From an uncultured Peptoniphilaceae bacterium (lineage in GTDB: Bacteria; Bacillota; Clostridia; Tissierellales; Peptoniphilaceae): DNA of 64,000 bases. The translations under genes were made by a program, and so were the position numbers. The stretch covers positions 127,356 to 191,355 of the forward strand of contig CALTTP010000001.1 of NCBI GenBank assembly GCA_943912255.1, read 5' to 3'. Positions 25,323-37,924 of the stretch are shown in pieces. The notes under the pieces were generated by a model. It was not told where the DNA came from. It saw only the letters and a program-made list of their open reading frames with translations, and did no database searches. Each line of letters opens with the position of its first letter. Within the stretch, counting starts at the first letter, position 1.

Positions 25323-27011
25323 ATGAAGGGAAAGAAGAAAGCTCTTTCACTAGTACTAGCAGGAATGATGTTACTTGTAACTGCTTGTGGTGGTGGGGGC
25401 AACACAGATGGTACAGGCAAGGATGGGAAGCCTGCAGCAGGAAATGGTGGAGATCAAATTTATAACTCTCTACTAGACAACGAACCAACTACACTTGATG
25501 CTCAAAAGGGTTCTGATATATATGGTAATAAAATCATAAACAATATCACTGAACCACTTTTAAGAATGGCTGAAAAGGAAGATGGCTCCAATGAAGTAGT
25601 TCCAGCAGCAGCTGAAAGCTATGAAGTTTCAGAAGATGGTCTTACTTATACTTTTAAGCTTAGAGATGGTATGAAATGGGAAGATGGAGAACCTCTAACA
25701 GCTAAGGACTACGAATATGGAATTAAAAGAGCTGCAGATCCAGCAACAGGTGCAGAAGCTGCATTTTTACTTGCTCCAATCAAGAACTTCAATGCTATTA
25801 ACTCTGGAGAATCTGGTATGGCTCTAGATGAACTTGGAGTTAAGGCAATTGATGAAAAGACTTTAGAAGTTACATTGGAATCACCAGCAGTTTACTTTAT
25901 AACTTTAGTTCCATTTAGAGTAATGTTACCTGCAAGACAAGATCTTGTTGAAAAATTTGGTGAACAATATGGTTCTGAAGCAGATACTGTATTATCCTGT
26001 GGACCTTTCAAGTTAACTGAATGGACTCACAATTCAAGACTTACTCTTGAAAAGAATGATGACTATTGGGATGCGGAAAACGTAGCGCTACAAACTGTTA
26101 ATCTACCAATAATGACTGACACCAACACTATAATGAACTCCTTCCAAGTAGGAGAAGTTGATGCAGTTAGAACTAATATTCCTGAATGGGTTGAAAAATT
26201 CGCAGGAATTGAAAATGTAAAGAGTAAACCAGTTAGTTTACCAGCTGTAGACTATTTAGCTGTAAATCACCAAGACAAACTATTGTCTAATGACAAGATA
26301 AGAGCTGCAATCAATTTAGCTATAGACAGAGAAGGAATAGCTGCTTTGATATCTAAGGACTTCAATCCACCAGCACAAGGTTGGGTACCACAAAGTATTC
26401 AATTAGATGGTGAGGAATTTAGAAAAGAAGCTGGAGATTCTTATAAGGATTTAAAAGAAGCTAATAAAGACGTTAAAGCACTATTTATAGAAGGTATGAA
26501 AGAACTTGGTCTTGGAGAAGACCCTTCAACAGTAGATTTGACAATAATCTATACAAACTCACCAATTGTAAAGAGTACCAATGAGTTCATTCAACAAAAT
26601 CTTAACACTAAATTAGGTGTTAATGTTAAGTTGGAAACTATGGAATGGCCAATTCTTAATGGTAGAGTACAAAAGGGTGACTACCAATTGGCATACCTAG
26701 CTTGGACTGCAGACTACAACGATCCTTCAGCCATGTTATCACTATTTACATCTAATGCTGGAGCGGTAAACACTGGATGGGCTAGTGAAGAGTATGATAA
26801 GCTAATAGCTGATGCAGCTGGCGAAAAGGATTCTGCTAAGGCATTTGATCTTTATAAACAAGCAGATAAGATGTTAGTTGATCAATCAGTAATCGTACCT
26901 TTAATCGGAGCTAGTACAAACTCATACTACTACGACTATGTAAAAGGTGTAACATTTAGTAATTTTACAACAACAGGATTTAAAACAATTGACACTTCAG
27001 CTAGACCTTAG
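25323..27011 (+). CDS. oppA: Oligopeptide ABC transporter substrate-binding lipoprotein (family 5 SBP), paralog 1
   Basis: Lipobox LLVTAC, 562 aa. SBP_bac_5 architecture. Confidence 0.9.
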   Translation: MKGKKKALSLVLAGMMLLVTACGGGGNTDGTGKDGKPAAGNGGDQIYNSLLDNEPTTLDAQKGSDIYGNKIINNITEPLLRMAEKEDGSNEVVPAAAESYEVSEDGLTYTFKLRDGMKWEDGEPLTAKDYEYGIKRAADPATGAEAAFLLAPIKNFNAINSGESGMALDELGVKAIDEKTLEVTLESPAVYFITLVPFRVMLPARQDLVEKFGEQYGSEADTVLSCGPFKLTEWTHNSRLTLEKNDDYWDAENVALQTVNLPIMTDTNTIMNSFQVGEVDAVRTNIPEWVEKFAGIENVKSKPVSLPAVDYLAVNHQDKLLSNDKIRAAINLAIDREGIAALISKDFNPPAQGWVPQSIQLDGEEFRKEAGDSYKDLKEANKDVKALFIEGMKELGLGEDPSTVDLTIIYTNSPIVKSTNEFIQQNLNTKLGVNVKLETMEWPILNGRVQKGDYQLAYLAWTADYNDPSAMLSLFTSNAGAVNTGWASEEYDKLIADAAGEKDSAKAFDLYKQADKMLVDQSVIVPLIGASTNSYYYDYVKGVTFSNFTTTGFKTIDTSARP

Positions 27012-31436: not shown

Positions 31437-33149
31437 ATGAATGGCAAGAAAAAAATCCTTGCATTATCCATGGCTGCAATGATGCTATTTGTTACAGCAT
31501 GTGGAAATGGAGGGAAAAACACTGACGCTTCCAATTCTGGAAACGTTAACAGCAGTGGAGAATCTGCACAAACTCAAGACGGTGGAAAGCAATATTTGAA
31601 CTCATTATTAAATGCGGAACCAGCTACATTAGACGCACAAAAAGGTTCTGACCTATATGGTAATACTGTAATAAACAATATTACCGAACCTCTTTTAAGA
31701 ATGGCAGAAAAGGACGATGGGTCAAATGAACTTATTCCAGCCGCTGCTGAAAGTTATGAAGTATCAGAAGATGGTTTAACTTACACTTTTAAACTAAGAG
31801 AAGGAATGAAGTGGGAAGATGGACAACCACTTACTGCTAAGGACTTTGAATATGGTATAAGAAGGGTTGCAGATCCTGCTACAGGTTCTGAATCTGCATT
31901 CTTACTTGCGCCAATCAAAAACTTTAACAAAATAAACTCTTCAAAAGGGGAAGTCAACTTAGATGAACTTGGAGTTAAAGCTGTAGATGACAGTACTTTA
32001 GAAGTAACTTTAGAAGCTCCAACAGTATATTTCCCAACATTGGTACCATTTAGAGTAATGTTACCAGCAAGAGCTGATATCATTGAAAAATATGGTGAAA
32101 AGTATGGTTCTGAAGCAGACACAGTATTATCCTGTGGACCTTTCAAATTAGTTGAGTGGACTCACAACTCAAGACTTACTCTTGAAAAAAACAATGAATA
32201 TTGGGATGCTGAAAACGTTAAATTAGAAACTGTTAATCTACCTATAATGACTGACACAAACACAGTTATGAACTCATTCTCAGTAGGAGAGGTAGATGTA
32301 GTAAGAACCAATATTCCTGAGTGGGTAACAAAATTTGAAGGCATGGATGAAGTTAAATTTAAGAAGGTTGACCTTCCATCAATCGACTACCTTTCTGTTA
32401 ACCATAAAGATGATTTAATGAAAAATGAAAAGATTAGAACTGCTATTAACTTAGCCGTTGATAGAGAAGGTCTTGCTAAGACTTTATCAGAAGGATTTGT
32501 AGTGCCTTCTCAAGGTTGGACTCCAAATGGTATTCAACTAGATGGTAAGGAATATAGAAAAGAAATTGGTGACTCATTCAAAGACCTTAAAGAAGCTAAT
32601 AAGGACTTAAAGGCACTATTTATAGAAGGTATGAAGGAACTAGGACTTGGTGAAGATCCAGCTTCCCTTGACATTACCATCATACACACAAACAGTCCAA
32701 GAGTTAAGATGATTAACGAATTTGTTCAACAGTCAATCAATACAAAACTTGGAACAAATGTAAAACTAGAAACTATGGAATGGCCAATACTTTCTGGTAG
32801 AGTTCAAAAAGGTGACTACCAATTGGCATACCTTGCATGGACAGCTGACTACAACGATCCATCTGCAATGTTATCACTATTTACATCAGCAGCAGCTGCA
32901 GTTAACACTGGATGGGAAAGTGCTGACTATGACAAGATAATCACTGAAGCTTCTCAAGAAAAAGATAGTCAAAAAGCTATGGAACTATATAAAGAAGCGG
33001 ATAAGATGATAGTTGATGAATCAGTAGTTATTCCTCTAATAGGGGCAAGTACAAATCAATATCATTATGATTTTGTTAAAGGAATTAAGTATAGCGAATT
33101 TACAACAACAGGCTATAAAACTATTGATACTTCTGAAAGACAAAAATAA
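31437..33149 (+). CDS. oppA: Oligopeptide-binding lipoprotein, paralog 2 (solo SBP)
   Basis: Lipobox FVTAC. About 75% identical to paralog 1 over most of its length. Own promoter with extended -10 TGgTATAAT. Confidence 0.9.
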   Translation: MNGKKKILALSMAAMMLFVTACGNGGKNTDASNSGNVNSSGESAQTQDGGKQYLNSLLNAEPATLDAQKGSDLYGNTVINNITEPLLRMAEKDDGSNELIPAAAESYEVSEDGLTYTFKLREGMKWEDGQPLTAKDFEYGIRRVADPATGSESAFLLAPIKNFNKINSSKGEVNLDELGVKAVDDSTLEVTLEAPTVYFPTLVPFRVMLPARADIIEKYGEKYGSEADTVLSCGPFKLVEWTHNSRLTLEKNNEYWDAENVKLETVNLPIMTDTNTVMNSFSVGEVDVVRTNIPEWVTKFEGMDEVKFKKVDLPSIDYLSVNHKDDLMKNEKIRTAINLAVDREGLAKTLSEGFVVPSQGWTPNGIQLDGKEYRKEIGDSFKDLKEANKDLKALFIEGMKELGLGEDPASLDITIIHTNSPRVKMINEFVQQSINTKLGTNVKLETMEWPILSGRVQKGDYQLAYLAWTADYNDPSAMLSLFTSAAAAVNTGWESADYDKIITEASQEKDSQKAMELYKEADKMIVDESVVIPLIGASTNQYHYDFVKGIKYSEFTTTGYKTIDTSERQK

Positions 33150-33165
33150 AACTTCATAAGAATAA

Positions 33166-33208
33166 ATAAGAACTAAAGAAGAAGGTGGCTTTGCCTATCT
33201 TCTTTTTT
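33166..33208 (+). terminator. Rho-independent terminator after oppA paralog 2
   Basis: aagaagaagg...cctatcttctt bulged stem followed by TTTTTT. Confidence 0.6.
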
Positions 33209-33735
33209 AGTGGGGTTAAGGGGTACTGGTGAGTTTAAAAATTAAAAAGAAGAAAATGGTTGAATATTGTAATTTGCAAATTAAAAAACGATGTGCTATA
33301 TTCAAGTCGGATTAGAAATAAAAGATAAATAAACTTTAAGACTTCATAAAGAAGGAATTGAAACTACAAATATATTAAAAGAGGAGTAATTTAAAACTCC
33401 AGCCAGAAATTAATAAATTCTTAAGGGAGAATTTTTTATTATTACTACTGTAAATTGGGAATAATTATAAGATCTTTGTGAATAAAATAGGGAAGATAAT
33501 ATAAACTAGGTAACCTTTTATTTGGTATAAGTTTTAGGTTAAAAACCTTAATAATTTGAACGGTATAATGTCCTTTATCTAAGTCCAGTGGTAATAAGTC
33601 AAGTAAAACTTAAAAAAAGTTAAAAATTACAAACGTTGAAAACATCAAATTTGTAAATTTTTACTACTTAAAATTGGACACAGCAAACAGACCTGTTAAA
33701 ACCTAAAATTTTAACAGGTTAGATAAAAAAACAAT

Positions 33736-34976
33736 TTAATATTTACTTGTGTAGAGACGATTGTTTTTCAATAAAGAAAAAATCAATCGCACTAACTTTC
33801 TGGCAGTTAAAACGAGTGCTCTTTTATGAGGAGACTTAGGAGTCTCATTGTATTTTTTAGAATAGAAAGCTTTTATATCAGGCTCATGCAAGCGAATTAG
33901 ATTAGTAGCTTCTAATAAATAGTACTTTAAATATCTGTTACCAGATTGAATACCAGGAGTATTGTCTGACTTAAAGCTACCAGATTGGTTTTCATTCCAT
34001 GACAAACCACAGTATTTAGCCAAAGCAGCTTGGTTTTTAAACCTATTGATATCACCAATCTCTGCTAAAATTCCAGCAGCATAAACAGGGCCTACACCAG
34101 GTATTGACTTTAAGATTTGATAAGCATTTAAAGCTTTAACTTGCTTTGTAATCACTTTGTCAAGCTCTTTAAGTTGTTTTTCAAAATATCTAATAGTAAG
34201 AGTTTGAAAAGAAAGGGCTTGATTAACAGAATCTTGAACAAGTTTAGGAAGCCTATAGGAAGATCTTGCAGCTTTTTGAATTTCCTTACCAAGAGCTTTA
34301 GGATCTTTAAAATGATTTTTACTCTTTTCAATTAGAAAATTTGTGAGTGATTCAACATCCTCATATGCTATCTCATCAACAGAGTAATATTCATTTATAA
34401 GTTCAATACAAGTATTACCAAAAGTATTGGAAAAAAGCTTATCATCAGAAGATTGAAGCTGAGAAAGAGTAGAGAACTTTAAAAACAAAGTATTAAGAAA
34501 TCTATTCTTTTCTCTAGCTAAATCATTAGAATATTGGTATCGTAAACGTGTTAATTGCATCAAAGCGTAGTAAATTTCATCCATAATAGTTCCTTTCTGA
34601 CCGATACGACCAAAGCGTAAACAATCAGCAATGACAAAAGCATCAATAGCATCATTTTTAGGAATCTCTGGATAAGAATCTTTGAACTTTTTAACCTGTT
34701 TAGCATTTAAAACATGAATAGATTTTAAATTATGAGGAATTTCATTAGTTTCTCTTAAAAACATAGCTAGATGTTCCTCATATTTTCCAGTAGATTCTAA
34801 ACCAAAATAGAAAAAAGCATTGTCTGAAAGTTTACAAACTTTATCTAAAAGTTGTTTAGAACCAAAGAGGAATTTCTAAAAGAACTATTAAAAACCTTAG
34901 AACCATCAGAGTTCATAACACAAACAGAGTTTGAAGATTTACTAACATCGATGCCGATGTAGAAAGTATGAAGCAT
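33736..34976 (-). pseudogene. IS110-family transposase/recombinase interrupted by a frameshift near its 5' end
   Basis: ATG at 34976 (RBS GGAGGTG) opens MLHTFYIGIDVSKSSNSVCVMNSDGSKVF..., the typical IS110 N-terminus with the first catalytic Asp. This frame stops at 34845. The remaining 342 codons (...FGLESTGKYEEHLAMFLRE...IPGVGPVYAAGILAEIGDINRF...) are open in a different frame from 34875 to 33736. The shift lies within 34845-34875. Confidence 0.75.
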
Positions 34977-34989
34977 ATATTTCACCTCC

Positions 34990-35260
34990 AATAATAATAT
35001 TTAGATAGGAGATTACAAAATTAATGCCCTGAACACTTTCGCATCAACACCCTCGCAATACGAATCTACTAACAGTCTAAATGCATGAACTCTACTGCCA
35101 AGAGAAATAGATCAGTTAGAAACAACCAGTGGTTCGAAGATAACTGAAAGGTCATGGGAACTGACTTTAAAAGTAGCCTCTACGCCTAGGCGTAGACCTA
35201 CAAGGAGGAACAGAACAAACCGTAATGACCTTATCTATTAAGATAATCATACTACACAGA
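34990..35260 (-). ncRNA. Candidate IS110 bridge (seek) RNA encoded in the non-coding 5' arm of the element
   Basis: No ORF in the arm. Local GC is higher than the flanking DNA. An 18-nt perfect palindrome TCTACGCCTAGGCGTAGA (35179-35196) and further stems are present. The position, upstream of the recombinase on the same strand, matches that of IS110-group bridge RNAs. Confidence 0.3.
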
Positions 35261-35325
35261 GCATTAATTTGTAACTAACAACAAGTTTTTTATACTTGTT
35301 AAATCTATTATACGAGGAGGGTTAA

Positions 35326-35931
35326 ATGAAGAACAAAAAGGAATATGTAATTCTTATTTTAATTGTCACTTTTGCACTATCAACATTCTATATCTATAAT
35401 TATAGAAATAAGGATGAAATTGAAGTTTTCCTAACTGTAAAGAATGAAACTGAAGAAAAGATTGATTCTGTGGGGGTTTTGATTGATAATAAAATTCTTT
35501 TAAATAGGACAAATGGAGAATTGTTTTATTTTCCTAAAGAGATAGTTAAAACACTTGAGGATACCTCGTTAATTGTAATTCTTAAAAATGGTGAAGTTTC
35601 TAGGTCCGGGAAATTTTCAACGGTGGATAATAAAGAGGTGACAGTCCAAGGTATAGAAGAAGGTAAAGTAAATTTAAATATTGAAACCCTTAAAGATGAT
35701 AGGAGGTTTAACCTTCCTAATATAGATAATTGGAAGGTAAAGGTTGAAGGTAGAAATATTACTGGGGAATTTAAGTCTGATACGGATTTGAATTATACTT
35801 TATATCTATTAGGAAAAGGTGGACATTTAGGAATATCTGACAAGAACACTAAGGGTGATTTAGCTACAGCTAGCTGGGAGAAACCTAGAAAGAAATTGGA
35901 TAGCTGGATTTTATTTGAGGAGTCTAAGTAA
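35326..35931 (+). CDS. Hypothetical membrane-anchored/secreted protein
   Basis: 201 aa, RBS GAGGAGGG, N-terminal signal-anchor, beta-rich remainder. No recognisable motif. Confidence 0.5.
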   Translation: MKNKKEYVILILIVTFALSTFYIYNYRNKDEIEVFLTVKNETEEKIDSVGVLIDNKILLNRTNGELFYFPKEIVKTLEDTSLIVILKNGEVSRSGKFSTVDNKEVTVQGIEEGKVNLNIETLKDDRRFNLPNIDNWKVKVEGRNITGEFKSDTDLNYTLYLLGKGGHLGISDKNTKGDLATASWEKPRKKLDSWILFEESK

Positions 35932-36214
35932 GGTTAATAATATATTTAGGAATATAAACGGAGTAGATCATTATAAGATTTTAAATATGTTCCTTTTTGA
36001 AGCTTAGTCTTAAATTGTTAAAGTTAATTTTAGATGAAAACCTTTTAAAAGTTTAGGAAAATACTTTCATTTTATTTGAAATGTGATATAATTTACTTAA
36101 GTGATTGGTGTATATCAGTATTACATATGATTTTGTAGCTGAGTTTTATTATTAAATGAATAATAAACGATTTCATATGGCAATCACTATATTATGTTCA
36201 TAGGAGGATATATA

Positions 36215-37924
36215 ATGACAAGCAAGAAAAAAATTCTTTCTCTACTCCTTGTAATGGTAATACTTGTAGTAACGGCATGTGGTGGTGGAGAGAAGAAGGC
36301 TACTGATGGTGGTAACGTTAACAATCCAGAAACTACTGAAGAGGTTGGTAATGCAAATGCTGAGGGACAGTATTATAATGCTCTTTTAAATGCTGAACCA
36401 AATACCTTTGATGCTCAAAAGGGTTCTGATTTATATGGAAACACTATTATAAACAATATCAATGAACCTTTGCTTAGAATGGGTGAAAAGGAAGATGGTA
36501 CTAATGAAATTTTACCAGCAGCTGCGGAAAAATATGAGGTTTCCGATGATGGGTTAGTTTATACTTTCCATTTGAGAGAAGGTTTGAAGTGGGAAGATGG
36601 GCAACCTCTTACTGCTAAGGATTATGAATATGGTATTAAGAGATCTGTAGATCCTGCAACTGGTTCAGAGTCAGCCTTTTTACTAGATCCTATTAAAAAC
36701 TTTGCTAAGTTAAATGGATCAGAAGGGGAAGTTAATATGGATGAATTAGGAGTCAAGGCTTTAGATGATAAGACTCTTGAAGTTACTCTTGAAAATCCAG
36801 CTGCATATTTTCCAACTTTAGTGCCTTTTAGAGTTATGCTTCCTTGTAGAGCAGATTTAGTGGAAAAATATGCTGAAAAGTACGGAGCTGAAGCGGACAC
36901 TGTACTATCCTGTGGACCTTTTAAGGTTTCTGAATGGACTCATAATTCCAGAATTACTCTTGTGAAAAATGAAGAATACTGGGATAAGGATTCTGTTAAA
37001 CTTGAAACAGTAAACTTACCTATTATGACTGATACAAACACTGTTATGAACTCTTTCCAAGTCGGAGAGGTAGATGCGGTTAGAACTAACCTTGCAGAAT
37101 GGGTTTCTAAGTTTAAGGAGATGGAAGGTGTAGAAAATAAGGAGATTCAAATTCCTTCTGTTAACTATTTGGCTGTTAATCACAGTGATGAATACCTTAA
37201 AAACGATAAAATAAGATTAGCTATTTCTCTTGCAATTGACAAACAAGGTCTTGCAGACCTAATAGCTAAGGGAATTCAAAAGCCAGCTACTGGTTGGGTA
37301 CCAGGTGGTATGGAATTGGACGGAACGGACTTTAGAAAAGACGCTGGAGACACCTATGAAAAGCTTAGGGAAGAAAATAAGGACTTAAAAGCTCTATTCA
37401 TTGAAGGGTTAAAGGAAATTGGAAAGGGAGAAGACCCTGCTCAAGCTGACATTACATTAATCTATACCAATACGCCTATTGTTAAGCAAAACTGTGAATT
37501 TATTCAACAATCTCTTAACTCAACTCTAGGAACAAATATTAAGTTAGAGACAATGGAATGGCCTATACTTTCTGGAAGAATCCAAAAAGCAGATTATCAA
37601 TTGGGATATTTAGCATGGACTGCAGACTACAATGACCCTTCAGCTATGTTGACATTGTTTATGTCTACTGCCAATGCGGTAAACACCAAGTGGAAAGATG
37701 AAAAATATGATGAGTTGATTAGAGATGCTATTAAGGCAGAAGATCCTAAGGATTCCTTAGAGAAATACAAAGAAGCTGAACAGATGATATCCGATCAAAC
37801 TGTTGTTATTCCATTAACTCATACTGGTTCTTTACAGTTCTACTATGACTATATTAAGGGAATACCTTTCAACGACTTTACAACAACTGGTTTTAAAACT
37901 ATAGATACTTCTGCTAGAAAATAG
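36215..37924 (+). CDS. oppA: Oligopeptide-binding lipoprotein, paralog 3 (solo SBP)
   Basis: ATG 36215 with RBS GGAGGA; the track starts at 36194. Lipobox VVTAC. Homologous to paralogs 1 and 2. Confidence 0.9.
   Translation: MTSKKKILSLLLVMVILVVTACGGGEKKATDGGNVNNPETTEEVGNANAEGQYYNALLNAEPNTFDAQKGSDLYGNTIINNINEPLLRMGEKEDGTNEILPAAAEKYEVSDDGLVYTFHLREGLKWEDGQPLTAKDYEYGIKRSVDPATGSESAFLLDPIKNFAKLNGSEGEVNMDELGVKALDDKTLEVTLENPAAYFPTLVPFRVMLPCRADLVEKYAEKYGAEADTVLSCGPFKVSEWTHNSRITLVKNEEYWDKDSVKLETVNLPIMTDTNTVMNSFQVGEVDAVRTNLAEWVSKFKEMEGVENKEIQIPSVNYLAVNHSDEYLKNDKIRLAISLAIDKQGLADLIAKGIQKPATGWVPGGMELDGTDFRKDAGDTYEKLREENKDLKALFIEGLKEIGKGEDPAQADITLIYTNTPIVKQNCEFIQQSLNSTLGTNIKLETMEWPILSGRIQKADYQLGYLAWTADYNDPSAMLTLFMSTANAVNTKWKDEKYDELIRDAIKAEDPKDSLEKYKEAEQMISDQTVVIPLTHTGSLQFYYDYIKGIPFNDFTTTGFKTIDTSARK

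What the first reader, a model, noticed from the sequence alone, without database searches (positions are those of the whole stretch)
33690..35260. IS110-family element with a frameshifted recombinase and a structured, GC-richer 5' arm that may encode a bridge RNA
An IS110-type recombinase (DEDD N-terminus YIGIDVSK, C-terminal HhH IPGVGPVYAAGILAEIGDINRF) is inserted between two solo oppA paralogs. Its first 43 codons are in one frame (34976-34845). The remaining 342 codons are in a second frame, open from 34875. The gene therefore needs a frame change within a 30-nt window: a recent inactivation, a sequencing error or programmed recoding. Upstream of the recombinase on the same strand lies a roughly 270-bp ORF-less arm. 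It is more GC-rich than the surrounding DNA and contains an 18-nt perfect palindrome TCTACGCCTAGGCGTAGA (35179-35196). This is exactly where IS110-group elements encode the bridge RNA that programs target and donor recognition. A perfect 11-bp hairpin (33691-33719) lies just 3' of the recombinase stop and marks the other end.
Basis: partly seen in the sequence, partly recalled or inferred. Interest (0 to 1): 0.55.

Follow-up and report, generated by a model that had tools for sequence, protein, structure and literature searches.

The report
Broken IS110 element with bridge RNA
This is a 1.7-kb IS110-type jumping gene whose upstream arm encodes a well-conserved guide ("bridge") RNA, but whose recombinase gene is broken by a real one-base deletion; it is an ordinary, decayed member of a recently characterised kind of mobile element.

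Summary
The element runs from 35316 to 33582 on the minus strand (1735 bp, a CT dinucleotide at each end), not 35260-33690.

The 340-nt 5' arm encodes a structured RNA. It is conserved in about 50 related loci whose recombinases are only 45-57% identical. A 72-pair structure is 90% paired, with 45 pairs showing compensatory changes. A covariance model built only from distant relatives hits the window once (35274-35013, 81 bits, E 2e-25).

Four guide segments match and covary with each element's own flanks and ends. Joining the two ends would create a TTGACT-17-TATAAT promoter.

The frameshift is a 1-nt deletion at 34864/34863, judged against intact 413-aa relatives that are 96% identical. The broken copy is 100% identical in at least three independent skin-metagenome assemblies. 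It is therefore a fixed inactivating mutation, not programmed recoding or a random read error.

The family inserts at Shine-Dalgarno sites of divergently oriented genes; here that gene is the 201-aa ORF at 35326. Verdict: new member of a known kind, modest interest.

The parts
33582..35316 (-). Whole IS110-group element, core CT to core CT (1735 bp; 1733 bp counting one core)
   Evidence: Homology to IS-sized contigs L054-L060 ends here. The same ends appear in 15 further loci at different insertion sites.
35315..35316 (-). Left copy of the core dinucleotide CT (junction of left target and LE)
   Evidence: Nearly all of about 50 related loci have flank|CT|CGTATAAT.
33582..33583 (-). Right copy of the core dinucleotide CT (junction of RE and right target)
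   Evidence: RE alignment...ACC-NNNN-GA|CT|, followed by divergent flanks.
35307..35312 (-). TATAAT -10 box at the LE tip, which is also the right-donor (RD) sequence CGTATAAT
   Evidence: Invariant in the family. Coordinates.
33597..33602 (-). TTGACT -35 box near the RE tip. After circularisation it lies 17 nt from the -10 box.
   Evidence: Read directly from the sequence. TTGAC(A/T) at the same distance from the end in the RE alignment.
35280..35300 (-). 5' stem-loop at the predicted RNA start (AACAAGU-loop-ACUUGUU)
   Evidence: The stem is kept and the loop varies among close copies. Present in the MFE folds.
35013..35274 (-). [quoted passage not shown]
   Evidence: Covariance model R1, built without the window group, gives its only window hit here: 81.1 bits, E 1.9e-25, full length.
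35257..35275 (-). 5' strand of the long-range clamp helix (GUUACAAAUUAAUGCUCUG)
   Evidence: Pairs with 35031-35011. Helix 1 has 25 pairs, 16 with compensatory changes.
35011..35031 (-). 3' strand of the clamp helix (CAGGGCAUUAAUUUUGUAAUC)
35231..35246 (-). Small hairpin (UUAUCU-UAAU-AGAUAA) between the clamp and the target-binding loop
   Evidence: The equivalent hairpin is AUUGAC/GUCAAU or GCUGU/ACAGC in relatives.
35203..35211 (-). Left target guide (LTG) GUUCCUCCU. Its last 6 nt equal the left flank plus core (CCTC|CT).
   Evidence: Guide and flank covary. Examples: L054 TCCTC|CT, L059 CTCTC|CT, L008 10 nt, L033 and L042 9 nt. Permutation p < 2e-4.
35173..35201 (-). [quoted passage not shown]
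   Evidence: Corresponds to helix 4 in relatives.
35165..35172 (-). Right target guide (RTG) UUUUAAAG, just 5' of the invariant UCNGUUCCCC. Only AAG matches this copy's right flank (CT|T).
   Evidence: Mean RTG match to own right flank is 2.66 nt beyond the core, against 0.84 for other loci's flanks (p < 2e-4).
35124..35134 (-). Left donor guide (LDG) AACCACUGGUU, equal to the RE tip ACCACTGG
   Evidence: LD and LDG covary: CTGG, CCGG, CCAG, CTAG, ACGG and TTAG on both sides.
35052..35061 (-). Right donor guide (RDG) GUAUUGCGAG. CGAG pairs with core plus RD (CTCG).
   Evidence: L040 and L051 have RD CTTG together with RDG GCAAGG; 53 loci have CTCG with GCGAGG. IS621 has CTTG with GCAAGG.
34845..34976 (-). 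N-terminal recombinase fragment: 43 codons plus stop, carrying the first DEDD aspartate. RBS GGAGGUG at 34989-34983.
34863..34864 (-). Site of the 1-nt deletion. The window reads TCTTT-GGTTCT; intact copies read TCTTTGGGTTCT (L054) or TCTTTAGGTTCT (L070).
33736..34875 (-). Remainder of the recombinase reading frame (annotatable ORF 342 aa from ATG 34764), carrying E, D..D and the SGS serine motif
33691..33720 (-). Conserved hairpin 3' of the recombinase stop codon. It is internal to RE and is not the element end.
   Evidence: Relatives have GCCCTG...CAGGGC in the equivalent place.
33584..33594 (-). Left donor (LD) sequence TTACCACTGGA at the RE tip
35317..35931 (+). Target gene: 201-aa ORF (ATG 35326). 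The element sits in its Shine-Dalgarno sequence. The inferred pre-insertion site on the + strand is CCTTTATCTA|AG|GAGGGTTAAATG.
   Evidence: Family-wide, 34 of 43 distinct sites have an ORF start 6-18 nt from the core on the opposite strand, against 16% in controls.

Best explanation
Window 35316-33582 (minus strand) is one copy of an IS110-group insertion sequence in a Lagierella-like member of the Bacillota.

**How intact copies are expected to work (inferred from the IS621 and CazIS110 literature).** The element excises as a circle. Joining RE to LE creates a TTGACT-17 nt-TATAAT promoter across the CT core. This promoter drives a roughly 290-nt bridge RNA followed by the recombinase mRNA. 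The DEDD/Ser recombinase binds the RNA.
- The target-binding loop (LTG 35211-35203, RTG 35172-35165) pairs with the two strands of a genomic site shaped ..YCTC|CT|T... That site is the complement of a Shine-Dalgarno sequence, A|AG|GAGR.
- The donor-binding loop (LDG 35134-35124, RDG about 35061-35052) pairs with the element's own joined ends.
- Recombination at the CT core then inserts the element just upstream of the SD of a gene on the opposite strand.

**This copy.** It landed in the SD of the 201-aa ORF at 35326. It later lost one base at 34864/34863. That splits the recombinase into a 43-codon fragment and a 342-aa ORF lacking the first two catalytic acids. The copy can no longer move on its own.

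**Shown here:** element ends, conserved covarying RNA structure, guide-flank and guide-end covariation, the latent junction promoter, the nature and reproducibility of the deletion, and SD-site targeting.

**Inferred, not shown:** transcription, RNA-protein binding, circle formation and actual recombination.
For: **Protein.** Pfam DEDD_Tnp_IS110 plus Transposase_20. Alignment to the IS621 transposase 8WT6 with conserved catalytic motifs. 5070 homologues, some named 'IS110 family RNA-guided transposase'.

**Ends.**

**RNA.**
- An nhmmer profile of the arm hits the upstream region in about 45 distant loci.
- A 72-pair structure is 90.2% paired, against 28-44% for slid controls. 45 pairs show compensatory change, against 13-20. 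No shuffle of 500 reached the observed values.
- Model R1, built excluding the window group, hits only 35274-35013, E 1.9e-25.

**Guides.** LTG, RTG and LDG match their own flanks or ends better than those of other loci (p < 2e-4 for LTG and RTG). The RDG/RD compensatory change CTTG/GCAAGG parallels IS621.

**Conservation of the arm.** It differs at 1 of 340 nt from L070, while the CDS differs at about 55 of 1240 nt.

**Frameshift.** A 1-nt deletion relative to intact copies. The same sequence is 100% identical in L061-L063 and L067-L069, from different runs, and the 342-aa ORF occurs on 18 contigs.

**SD targeting.**
Against: - No expression, circle-junction or activity data exist for this element.
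- No Rfam family matches. R1 does not recognise the experimentally validated IS621 bridge RNA, so homology to IS621 rests on shared architecture, guide logic and a short shared RDG motif.
- In this copy the guides match the actual target only weakly: 6 nt for the LTG including the core, and 3 nt for the RTG including the core.
- The window RNA carries a unique C-to-A change at 35155, in a motif invariant in all 35 other sequences.
- No empty site was recovered.
- The independent assemblies come from one BioProject and may represent one strain.
Confidence: 0.9

Rival explanations
1. The frame change is programmed -1 ribosomal frameshifting, as in IS1/IS3 transposases, so a full-length recombinase is still made.
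For: The two frames overlap by about 30 nt, and a -1 shift would restore the protein.
Against: All close and distant relatives encode one uninterrupted 408-436-aa ORF. The window differs from them by a simple 1-nt deletion. The overlap contains no X XXY YYZ slippery heptamer. Programmed frameshifting is not a described feature of IS110 recombinases (own knowledge).
Confidence: 0.02
2. The frameshift is a sequencing or assembly artefact, and the real gene is intact.
For: It is a single-base difference next to short T and G runs.
Against: The full 1781-bp region is 100% identical in three ENA assemblies from different runs and in a Logan contig. The 342-aa ORF is recorded on 18 contigs from NCBI, ENA and Logan. 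The run is only 2-3 nt long, which is not error-prone for Illumina (own knowledge).
Confidence: 0.04
3. The 5' arm is only a structured leader or cis-regulatory UTR of the recombinase mRNA, not a guide RNA.
For: It lies between a promoter element and the RBS. No terminator separates it from the CDS.
Against: Loop segments covary with DNA outside the RNA gene: the left flank, the right flank and the far RE tip. A leader model does not predict this. The architecture of two internal loops with four guides and a shared CT core matches bridge RNAs (PMC11208160).
Confidence: 0.03
4. The copy is not a dead relic. It is non-autonomous but can be mobilised in trans, and its bridge RNA may still be used by an intact sister copy in the same genome.
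For: The donor ends and all four guides are intact and nearly identical to those of intact relatives, with 1 difference in 340 nt against L070. Intact 96%-identical copies circulate in related samples. Logan contigs of the host break inside the LE, which is weak evidence at best for further copies.
Against: No intact copy was shown in the same genome. The window has no second copy. The 35155 C-to-A change hits an invariant RNA position.
Confidence: 0.3

Closest known systems
IS621 (E. coli) and its 177-nt bridge RNA (Durrant et al. 2024, PMC11208160; Hiraizumi et al. 2024, PMC11208158)
   Same: - DEDD RuvC-like plus Tnp-domain recombinase.
- ncRNA encoded in the LE upstream of the gene.
- CT core at both junctions.
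- -35 box in RE and -10 box in LE, forming a promoter only in the circle.
- 5' stem-loop followed by a target loop (LTG on the 5' side, RTG on the 3' side) and a donor loop (LDG, RDG).
- RDG motif GUAUU(U)GC(A/G)AGG(G)U, with CAAG-CTTG in IS621 and CGAG-CTCG here.
   Different: - The recombinase is 413 aa against 326 aa, and only weakly similar (E 7e-9).
- The RNA core is about 262 nt, with an extra 19-26-bp long-range clamp helix and a small hairpin that make a four-way junction. The IS621 RNA runs straight into the ATG without these.
- Model R1 does not detect the IS621 RNA.
- The target is an SD-like site rather than a REP element.
CazIS110-1 of Caloranaerobacter azorensis (bioRxiv 10.1101/2025.10.25.684509)
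   Same: An IS110 element from a Clostridia-class host, with a TBL/DBL bridge RNA shown to be necessary and sufficient, together with the transposase, for excision and integration.
IS900/IS901/IS902 of Mycobacterium avium (IS110 family). Insertion between RBS and start codon is recalled from Green 1989 and Doran 1997 (own knowledge, not verified here).
   Same: Orientation-specific insertion into translation-initiation signals of a host gene.
   Different: Actinobacterial host and a distant recombinase. The guide-RNA basis was not described in that literature, and the exact cut position relative to the SD differs.

Membership tests
IS110 family, IS110 group (bridge/seek-RNA-guided elements) | N-terminal RuvC-like DEDD domain | tested here: met
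   PF01548, 7e-31. The D, E and D..D motifs align to IS621 8WT6. In this copy the domain is split by the frameshift.
IS110 family, IS110 group (bridge/seek-RNA-guided elements) | C-terminal Tnp domain (Transposase_20) with a conserved serine motif | tested here: met
   PF02371, 2.8e-22. NQSGS aligns to YESGS of IS621.
IS110 family, IS110 group (bridge/seek-RNA-guided elements) | Long non-coding arm upstream of the recombinase (downstream in the IS1111 group) | tested here: met
   340-nt LE against a 153-nt RE.
IS110 family, IS110 group (bridge/seek-RNA-guided elements) | No terminal inverted repeats; the same short core sequence on both sides instead of a long target duplication | tested here: met
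   CT at 35316-35315 and at 33583-33582. The ends CTCGTATAAT... and ...CCACTGGACT are not inverted repeats.
IS110 family, IS110 group (bridge/seek-RNA-guided elements) | A promoter is reconstituted across the RE-LE junction of the circular form | tested here: met
   At sequence level only: TTGACT (33602-33597), then 13 nt, CT and CG, then TATAAT (35312-35307), giving a 17-nt spacer. This is conserved across the family. Promoter activity is not testable here.
IS110 family, IS110 group (bridge/seek-RNA-guided elements) | Conserved structured ncRNA with two stem-enclosed internal loops | tested here: met
IS110 family, IS110 group (bridge/seek-RNA-guided elements) | Target loop: the 5' segment equals the left target plus core; the 3' segment is complementary to core plus right target | tested here: met
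   Family-wide covariation. For the window copy the match is short: CCTCCT for the LTG and AAG for the RTG.
IS110 family, IS110 group (bridge/seek-RNA-guided elements) | Donor loop segments match the element's own RE tip and LE tip | tested here: met
   ACCACUGG equals the LD. CGAG pairs with CTCG, with a compensatory CAAG/CTTG change in L040 and L051.
IS110 family, IS110 group (bridge/seek-RNA-guided elements) | Intact recombinase reading frame (an autonomous element) | tested here: not met
   1-nt deletion at 34864/34863. The element is a member of the family, but a defective copy.
IS110 family, IS110 group (bridge/seek-RNA-guided elements) | RNA is expressed, binds the recombinase and is required for recombination | not testable with these tools
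   Needs RNA-seq, RIP or a recombination assay.
IS621-type bridge RNA (sequence/structure homology to the validated RNA) | Detectable by a shared covariance model | tested here: not met
   R1 gives only spurious hairpin matches of 12 bits or less on an IS621 locus. Rfam has no matching family. Only the RDG motif and the overall logic are shared.
Programmed -1 frameshift transposases (IS1/IS3 type) | Frameshift conserved in relatives, with a slippery heptamer in the overlap | tested here: not met
   Relatives have a single ORF. There is no slippery heptamer in 34875-34848.

The most novel reading that the evidence does not exclude
The roughly 50 related loci may define a distinct, so far undescribed bridge-RNA subfamily of Bacillota.
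- The RNA is a roughly 262-nt four-way junction. A 19-26-bp long-range clamp helix ties the target and donor loops together.
- The left target guide mimics the anti-Shine-Dalgarno sequence.
- Elements therefore home to ribosome-binding sites of divergently oriented genes. They cut the gene off from its promoter while regenerating its SD (core AG plus GAGG).

If so, this would be a natural example of bridge-RNA targeting tuned to a ubiquitous functional motif, and a larger RNA scaffold of possible engineering interest.
Probability: 0.3. Interest if true: 0.55.

Novelty: new member of a known kind. Interest (0 to 1): 0.35.

Why it matters
For genome annotation, the locus should be labelled as one defective IS110-group element of 1735 bp with a bridge-RNA gene. 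It should not be labelled as a 342-aa 'transposase' plus unexplained intergenic DNA. The insertion sits in the ribosome-binding site of the 201-aa ORF and may affect its expression.

For the bridge-recombinase field, the related loci give a ready-made comparative set: an alignment, a 72-pair structure, a covariance model and guide assignments. They describe a clade with a larger RNA and SD-like targets, and intact 413-aa orthologues (P0001, P0125-P0136) could be tested. None of this changes current understanding of how such elements work.

Tried and rejected
- **Rfam scan** of 33000-36200 at E up to 10: only chance snoRNA/miRNA-type hits.
- **Second copy in the window:** none.
- **GTDB representative genomes:** no close relative, best 57% aa identity. 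Close copies came only from the protein collection and Logan/ENA contigs.
- **Automatic RNAalifold consensus**: recovered only part of the structure. It also proposed CCC.UGA:UCA.GGG, which conflicts with the better-supported clamp and target-loop stems, so I replaced it with a manual model tested.
- **First manual helix mapping:** the register of the small hairpin was wrong, and the 5' stem-loop columns were too gappy. The hairpin was corrected and the 5' stem-loop was left out of the count.
- **R1 against a verified IS621 locus:** no meaningful hit.
- **Exact search for the predicted empty site** CCTTTATCTAAGGAGGGTTAAATGAAG in JGI metagenomes: nothing.
- **Literature search for described SD/RBS targeting by bridge-RNA elements:** nothing explicit in the papers read. 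The IS900 precedent is from memory only.
- **Mismatched target:** I considered that the window copy sat in a badly mismatched 'off-target'. L070, which has the same guides, shows the same short match (CCTCCT and CTT), so this looks normal for this guide pair.
Full report
**Observation.**

On the minus strand an ATG at 34976 opens a 43-codon frame that ends at TAG 34847-34845 and contains YIGIDVSK. A second frame is open from 34875 to the stop at 33738-33736. Its listed ORF is 342 aa from ATG 34764.

Joined across the overlap, the 413-aa product hits Pfam DEDD_Tnp_IS110 (7e-31) and Transposase_20 (2.8e-22). It aligns to the IS621 transposase structure 8WT6 over the D, E, D..D and SGS motifs.

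The 18-nt palindrome (35196-35179) and the 3' hairpin (33720-33691) are as described. The 5' arm has 37.6-38.9% GC, against 33.7% for the window and about 25% for nearby intergenic DNA. It folds with z = -3.5 to -3.9 against shuffles.

**True extent.**

A protein search found intact 413-aa relatives at 96% (P0001) and 86% (P0002, P0003) identity. Their contigs are IS-sized, 1.6-2.0 kb. DNA homology to the window runs from 35320 to 33580.

Alignments of both ends, and of 15 more loci carrying the element at other sites, fix the junctions. Written on the element strand, they are:
- left flank ...TTTAACCCTC | CT | CGTATAATAG...
- right end ...TTGACTTATTACCACTGGA | CT | TAGATAAAGG...

The element is therefore 35316-33582, 1735 bp from core to core. 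A CT core sits on each side and there are no inverted repeats.

If the ends are joined through one CT, TTGACT (33602-33597) and TATAAT (35312-35307) are separated by exactly 17 nt. This latent junction promoter is a hallmark of IS110 elements (PMC11208160, PMC11187229). Its geometry is conserved in the family.

**The 5' arm is a conserved, structured RNA gene.**

A scan of one genome per species returned 53 loci whose recombinases are 38-61% identical to this one, 45-57% for most. A nucleotide profile of the arm nevertheless hits the region upstream of the recombinase in about 45 of them. I aligned 36 non-redundant arms (A3).

RNAalifold recovered only part of a structure, so I defined helices by hand and counted them:
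- 72 pairs are 90.2% paired, against 28-44% when partners are slid by 1-3 columns.
- 45 pairs show changes on both sides, against 13-20 in slid controls.
- The covariation score is 0.333, against at most 0.095.
- No shuffle of 500 reached any observed value.

The architecture, in order along the RNA, is:
1. a 5' stem-loop (35300-35280);
2. a long clamp helix (35275-35257 with 35031-35011; 25 pairs in relatives, 16 of them compensatory);
3. a small hairpin (35246-35231);
4. a first stem with an internal loop, capped by the palindrome hairpin;
5. a second, strongly covarying stem system around a second internal loop.

As an independent test I built a covariance model from 33 distant arms only, leaving out the window and its two closest relatives. 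It finds exactly one hit in the 64-kb window: 35274-35013 (minus strand), full length, 81.1 bits, E 1.9e-25.

Rfam has no matching family.

**The loops carry guides.**

[quoted passage not shown] The 3' side is complementary to core plus right target or right donor (PMC11208160). All four relations hold here.

- **LTG.** The block before the apical stem (window GUUCCUCCU, 35211-35203) equals each element's own left flank plus CT. Matches: L008 10 nt; L033 and L042 9 nt; L027, L028, L039 and L040 8 nt; L054 (TCCTC|CT) and L059 (CTCTC|CT) 7 nt each, with correspondingly different guides. The mean own match is 6.08 nt, against 4.86 for other loci's flanks (permutation p < 2e-4).
- **RTG.** The variable block ending in AG, just 5' of the invariant UCNGUUCCCC (window UUUUAAAG, 35172-35165), is complementary to CT plus the right flank. 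The mean match beyond the core is 2.66 nt for own flanks, against 0.84 for others (p < 2e-4). The first flank base covaries: UAG with CTA, GAG with CTC, AAG with CTT.
- **LDG.** ACCACUGG (35133-35126) equals the RE tip ACCACTGG. Relatives show CCGG, CCAG, CTAG, ACGG and TTAG on both sides.
- **RDG.** GCGAG pairs with CTCG at the LE tip. The only loci with CTTG (L040, L051) have GCAAG. The validated IS621 element likewise has CT|TGTAT with GCAAGG.

For the window copy itself the matches to its actual target are short: CCTCCT for the LTG and CTT for the RTG. L070 carries the same guides at another site and shows the same short matches.

**The frameshift.**

Against L054 (TCTTTGGGTTCT) and L070 (TCTTTAGGTTCT) the window reads TCTTT-GGTTCT. 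One base is missing between 34864 and 34863.

All relatives have a single ORF, and the overlap has no slippery heptamer. Programmed recoding is therefore not supported.

The whole 1781-bp region is 100% identical in three ENA assemblies from different runs and in a Logan contig. The 342-aa ORF is on record from 18 contigs. A random sequencing error is therefore unlikely, and the deletion appears fixed at this locus.

The host is close to Lagierella sp., judged from its MprF protein.

The 43-codon fragment keeps only the first aspartate. The 342-aa ORF starts after the glutamate. No active enzyme is expected.

Compared with L070, the arm differs at 1 of 340 positions, while the CDS differs at about 55 of 1240. 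That single change, C to A at 35155, falls on a base that is C in all 35 other aligned sequences.

**Target biology.**

The left flanks almost all end in YCTC. Read on the other strand, the junction is AG|GAGG... followed by a start codon.

In 34 of 43 distinct insertion sites an ORF of at least 60 aa starts 6-18 nt from the core on the opposite strand. The rate at shifted control positions is 16%.

In the window the gene is the 201-aa ORF (ATG 35326). Its SD, GAGGAGGG (35314-35321), is partly rebuilt from the core and the first LE base.

From memory, IS900-type IS110 elements also target translation-initiation signals. The papers I could read do not discuss this for bridge-RNA elements.

**Comparison and verdict.**

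The element meets every sequence-testable defining feature of IS110-group bridge-RNA elements except an intact recombinase frame. It differs from IS621 in three ways:
- a longer recombinase;
- a longer RNA with a clamp helix and an extra hairpin;
- SD-like rather than REP targets.

My model does not detect the IS621 RNA, so the two RNAs are related by architecture and guide logic rather than by alignable sequence. I did not check the clamp-helix clade against the full published catalogue, so I do not claim it is new.

The finding is a correct call of a known kind of element, represented here by a defective copy. Interest is modest.

Noticed in passing
window 25455-26675, 31590-32810, 36368-37588: There are three oppA (SBP_bac_5) paralogues, 70-83% identical at DNA level, around one oppBCDF operon. 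The element lies between the second and third, separated from the third by the 201-aa ORF.
   Followed up: partly
window 35269-35296 (+ strand): A promoter-like site, TTGTAA-16-TATACT, lies inside the LE and points outward toward the 201-aa ORF whose SD the element occupies. It could keep that gene transcribed. It is only a consensus match, and its conservation in relatives was not checked.
   Followed up: no
window 35155: The window copy has A where all 35 other aligned bridge-RNA sequences have C, in the invariant GUUCCCCUGA motif. It is the only difference from L070 in the whole 340-nt arm.
   Followed up: partly
window 35326-35931: The 201-aa ORF has no Pfam hit on record and a hydrophobic N-terminus. 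It forms a single-member 90% cluster seen on 18 contigs. Function unknown.
   Followed up: no
L077 vs L078/L080: These copies of the same element share an identical right flank (TAATAATACCTT, a perfect 8-nt match to their RTG) but have different left flanks. This suggests IS-mediated rearrangement between copies, or chimeric assembly across the repeat.
   Followed up: no
L026 and L019 left junctions: The LTG-flank match is perfect but offset by 2 nt relative to the core: L026 has an extra CT in the DNA, and L019 has an extra UC in the guide. This may reflect slipped or alternative core usage.
   Followed up: no
L085 1795-1925 (E. coli ETEC-2264): This IS621 locus carries a partial tandem duplication of the LE tip and the first ~60 nt of the bridge RNA, seen when checking the recalled IS621 sequence.
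   Followed up: no
window 33691-33720 and equivalent positions in L001-L037: The hairpin after the recombinase stop codon is conserved with compensatory changes across the family (ACCTG...CAGGT against GCCCTG...CAGGGC). In many relatives a T-run follows about 12 nt later. It may be a terminator or an RE structural element.
   Followed up: partly
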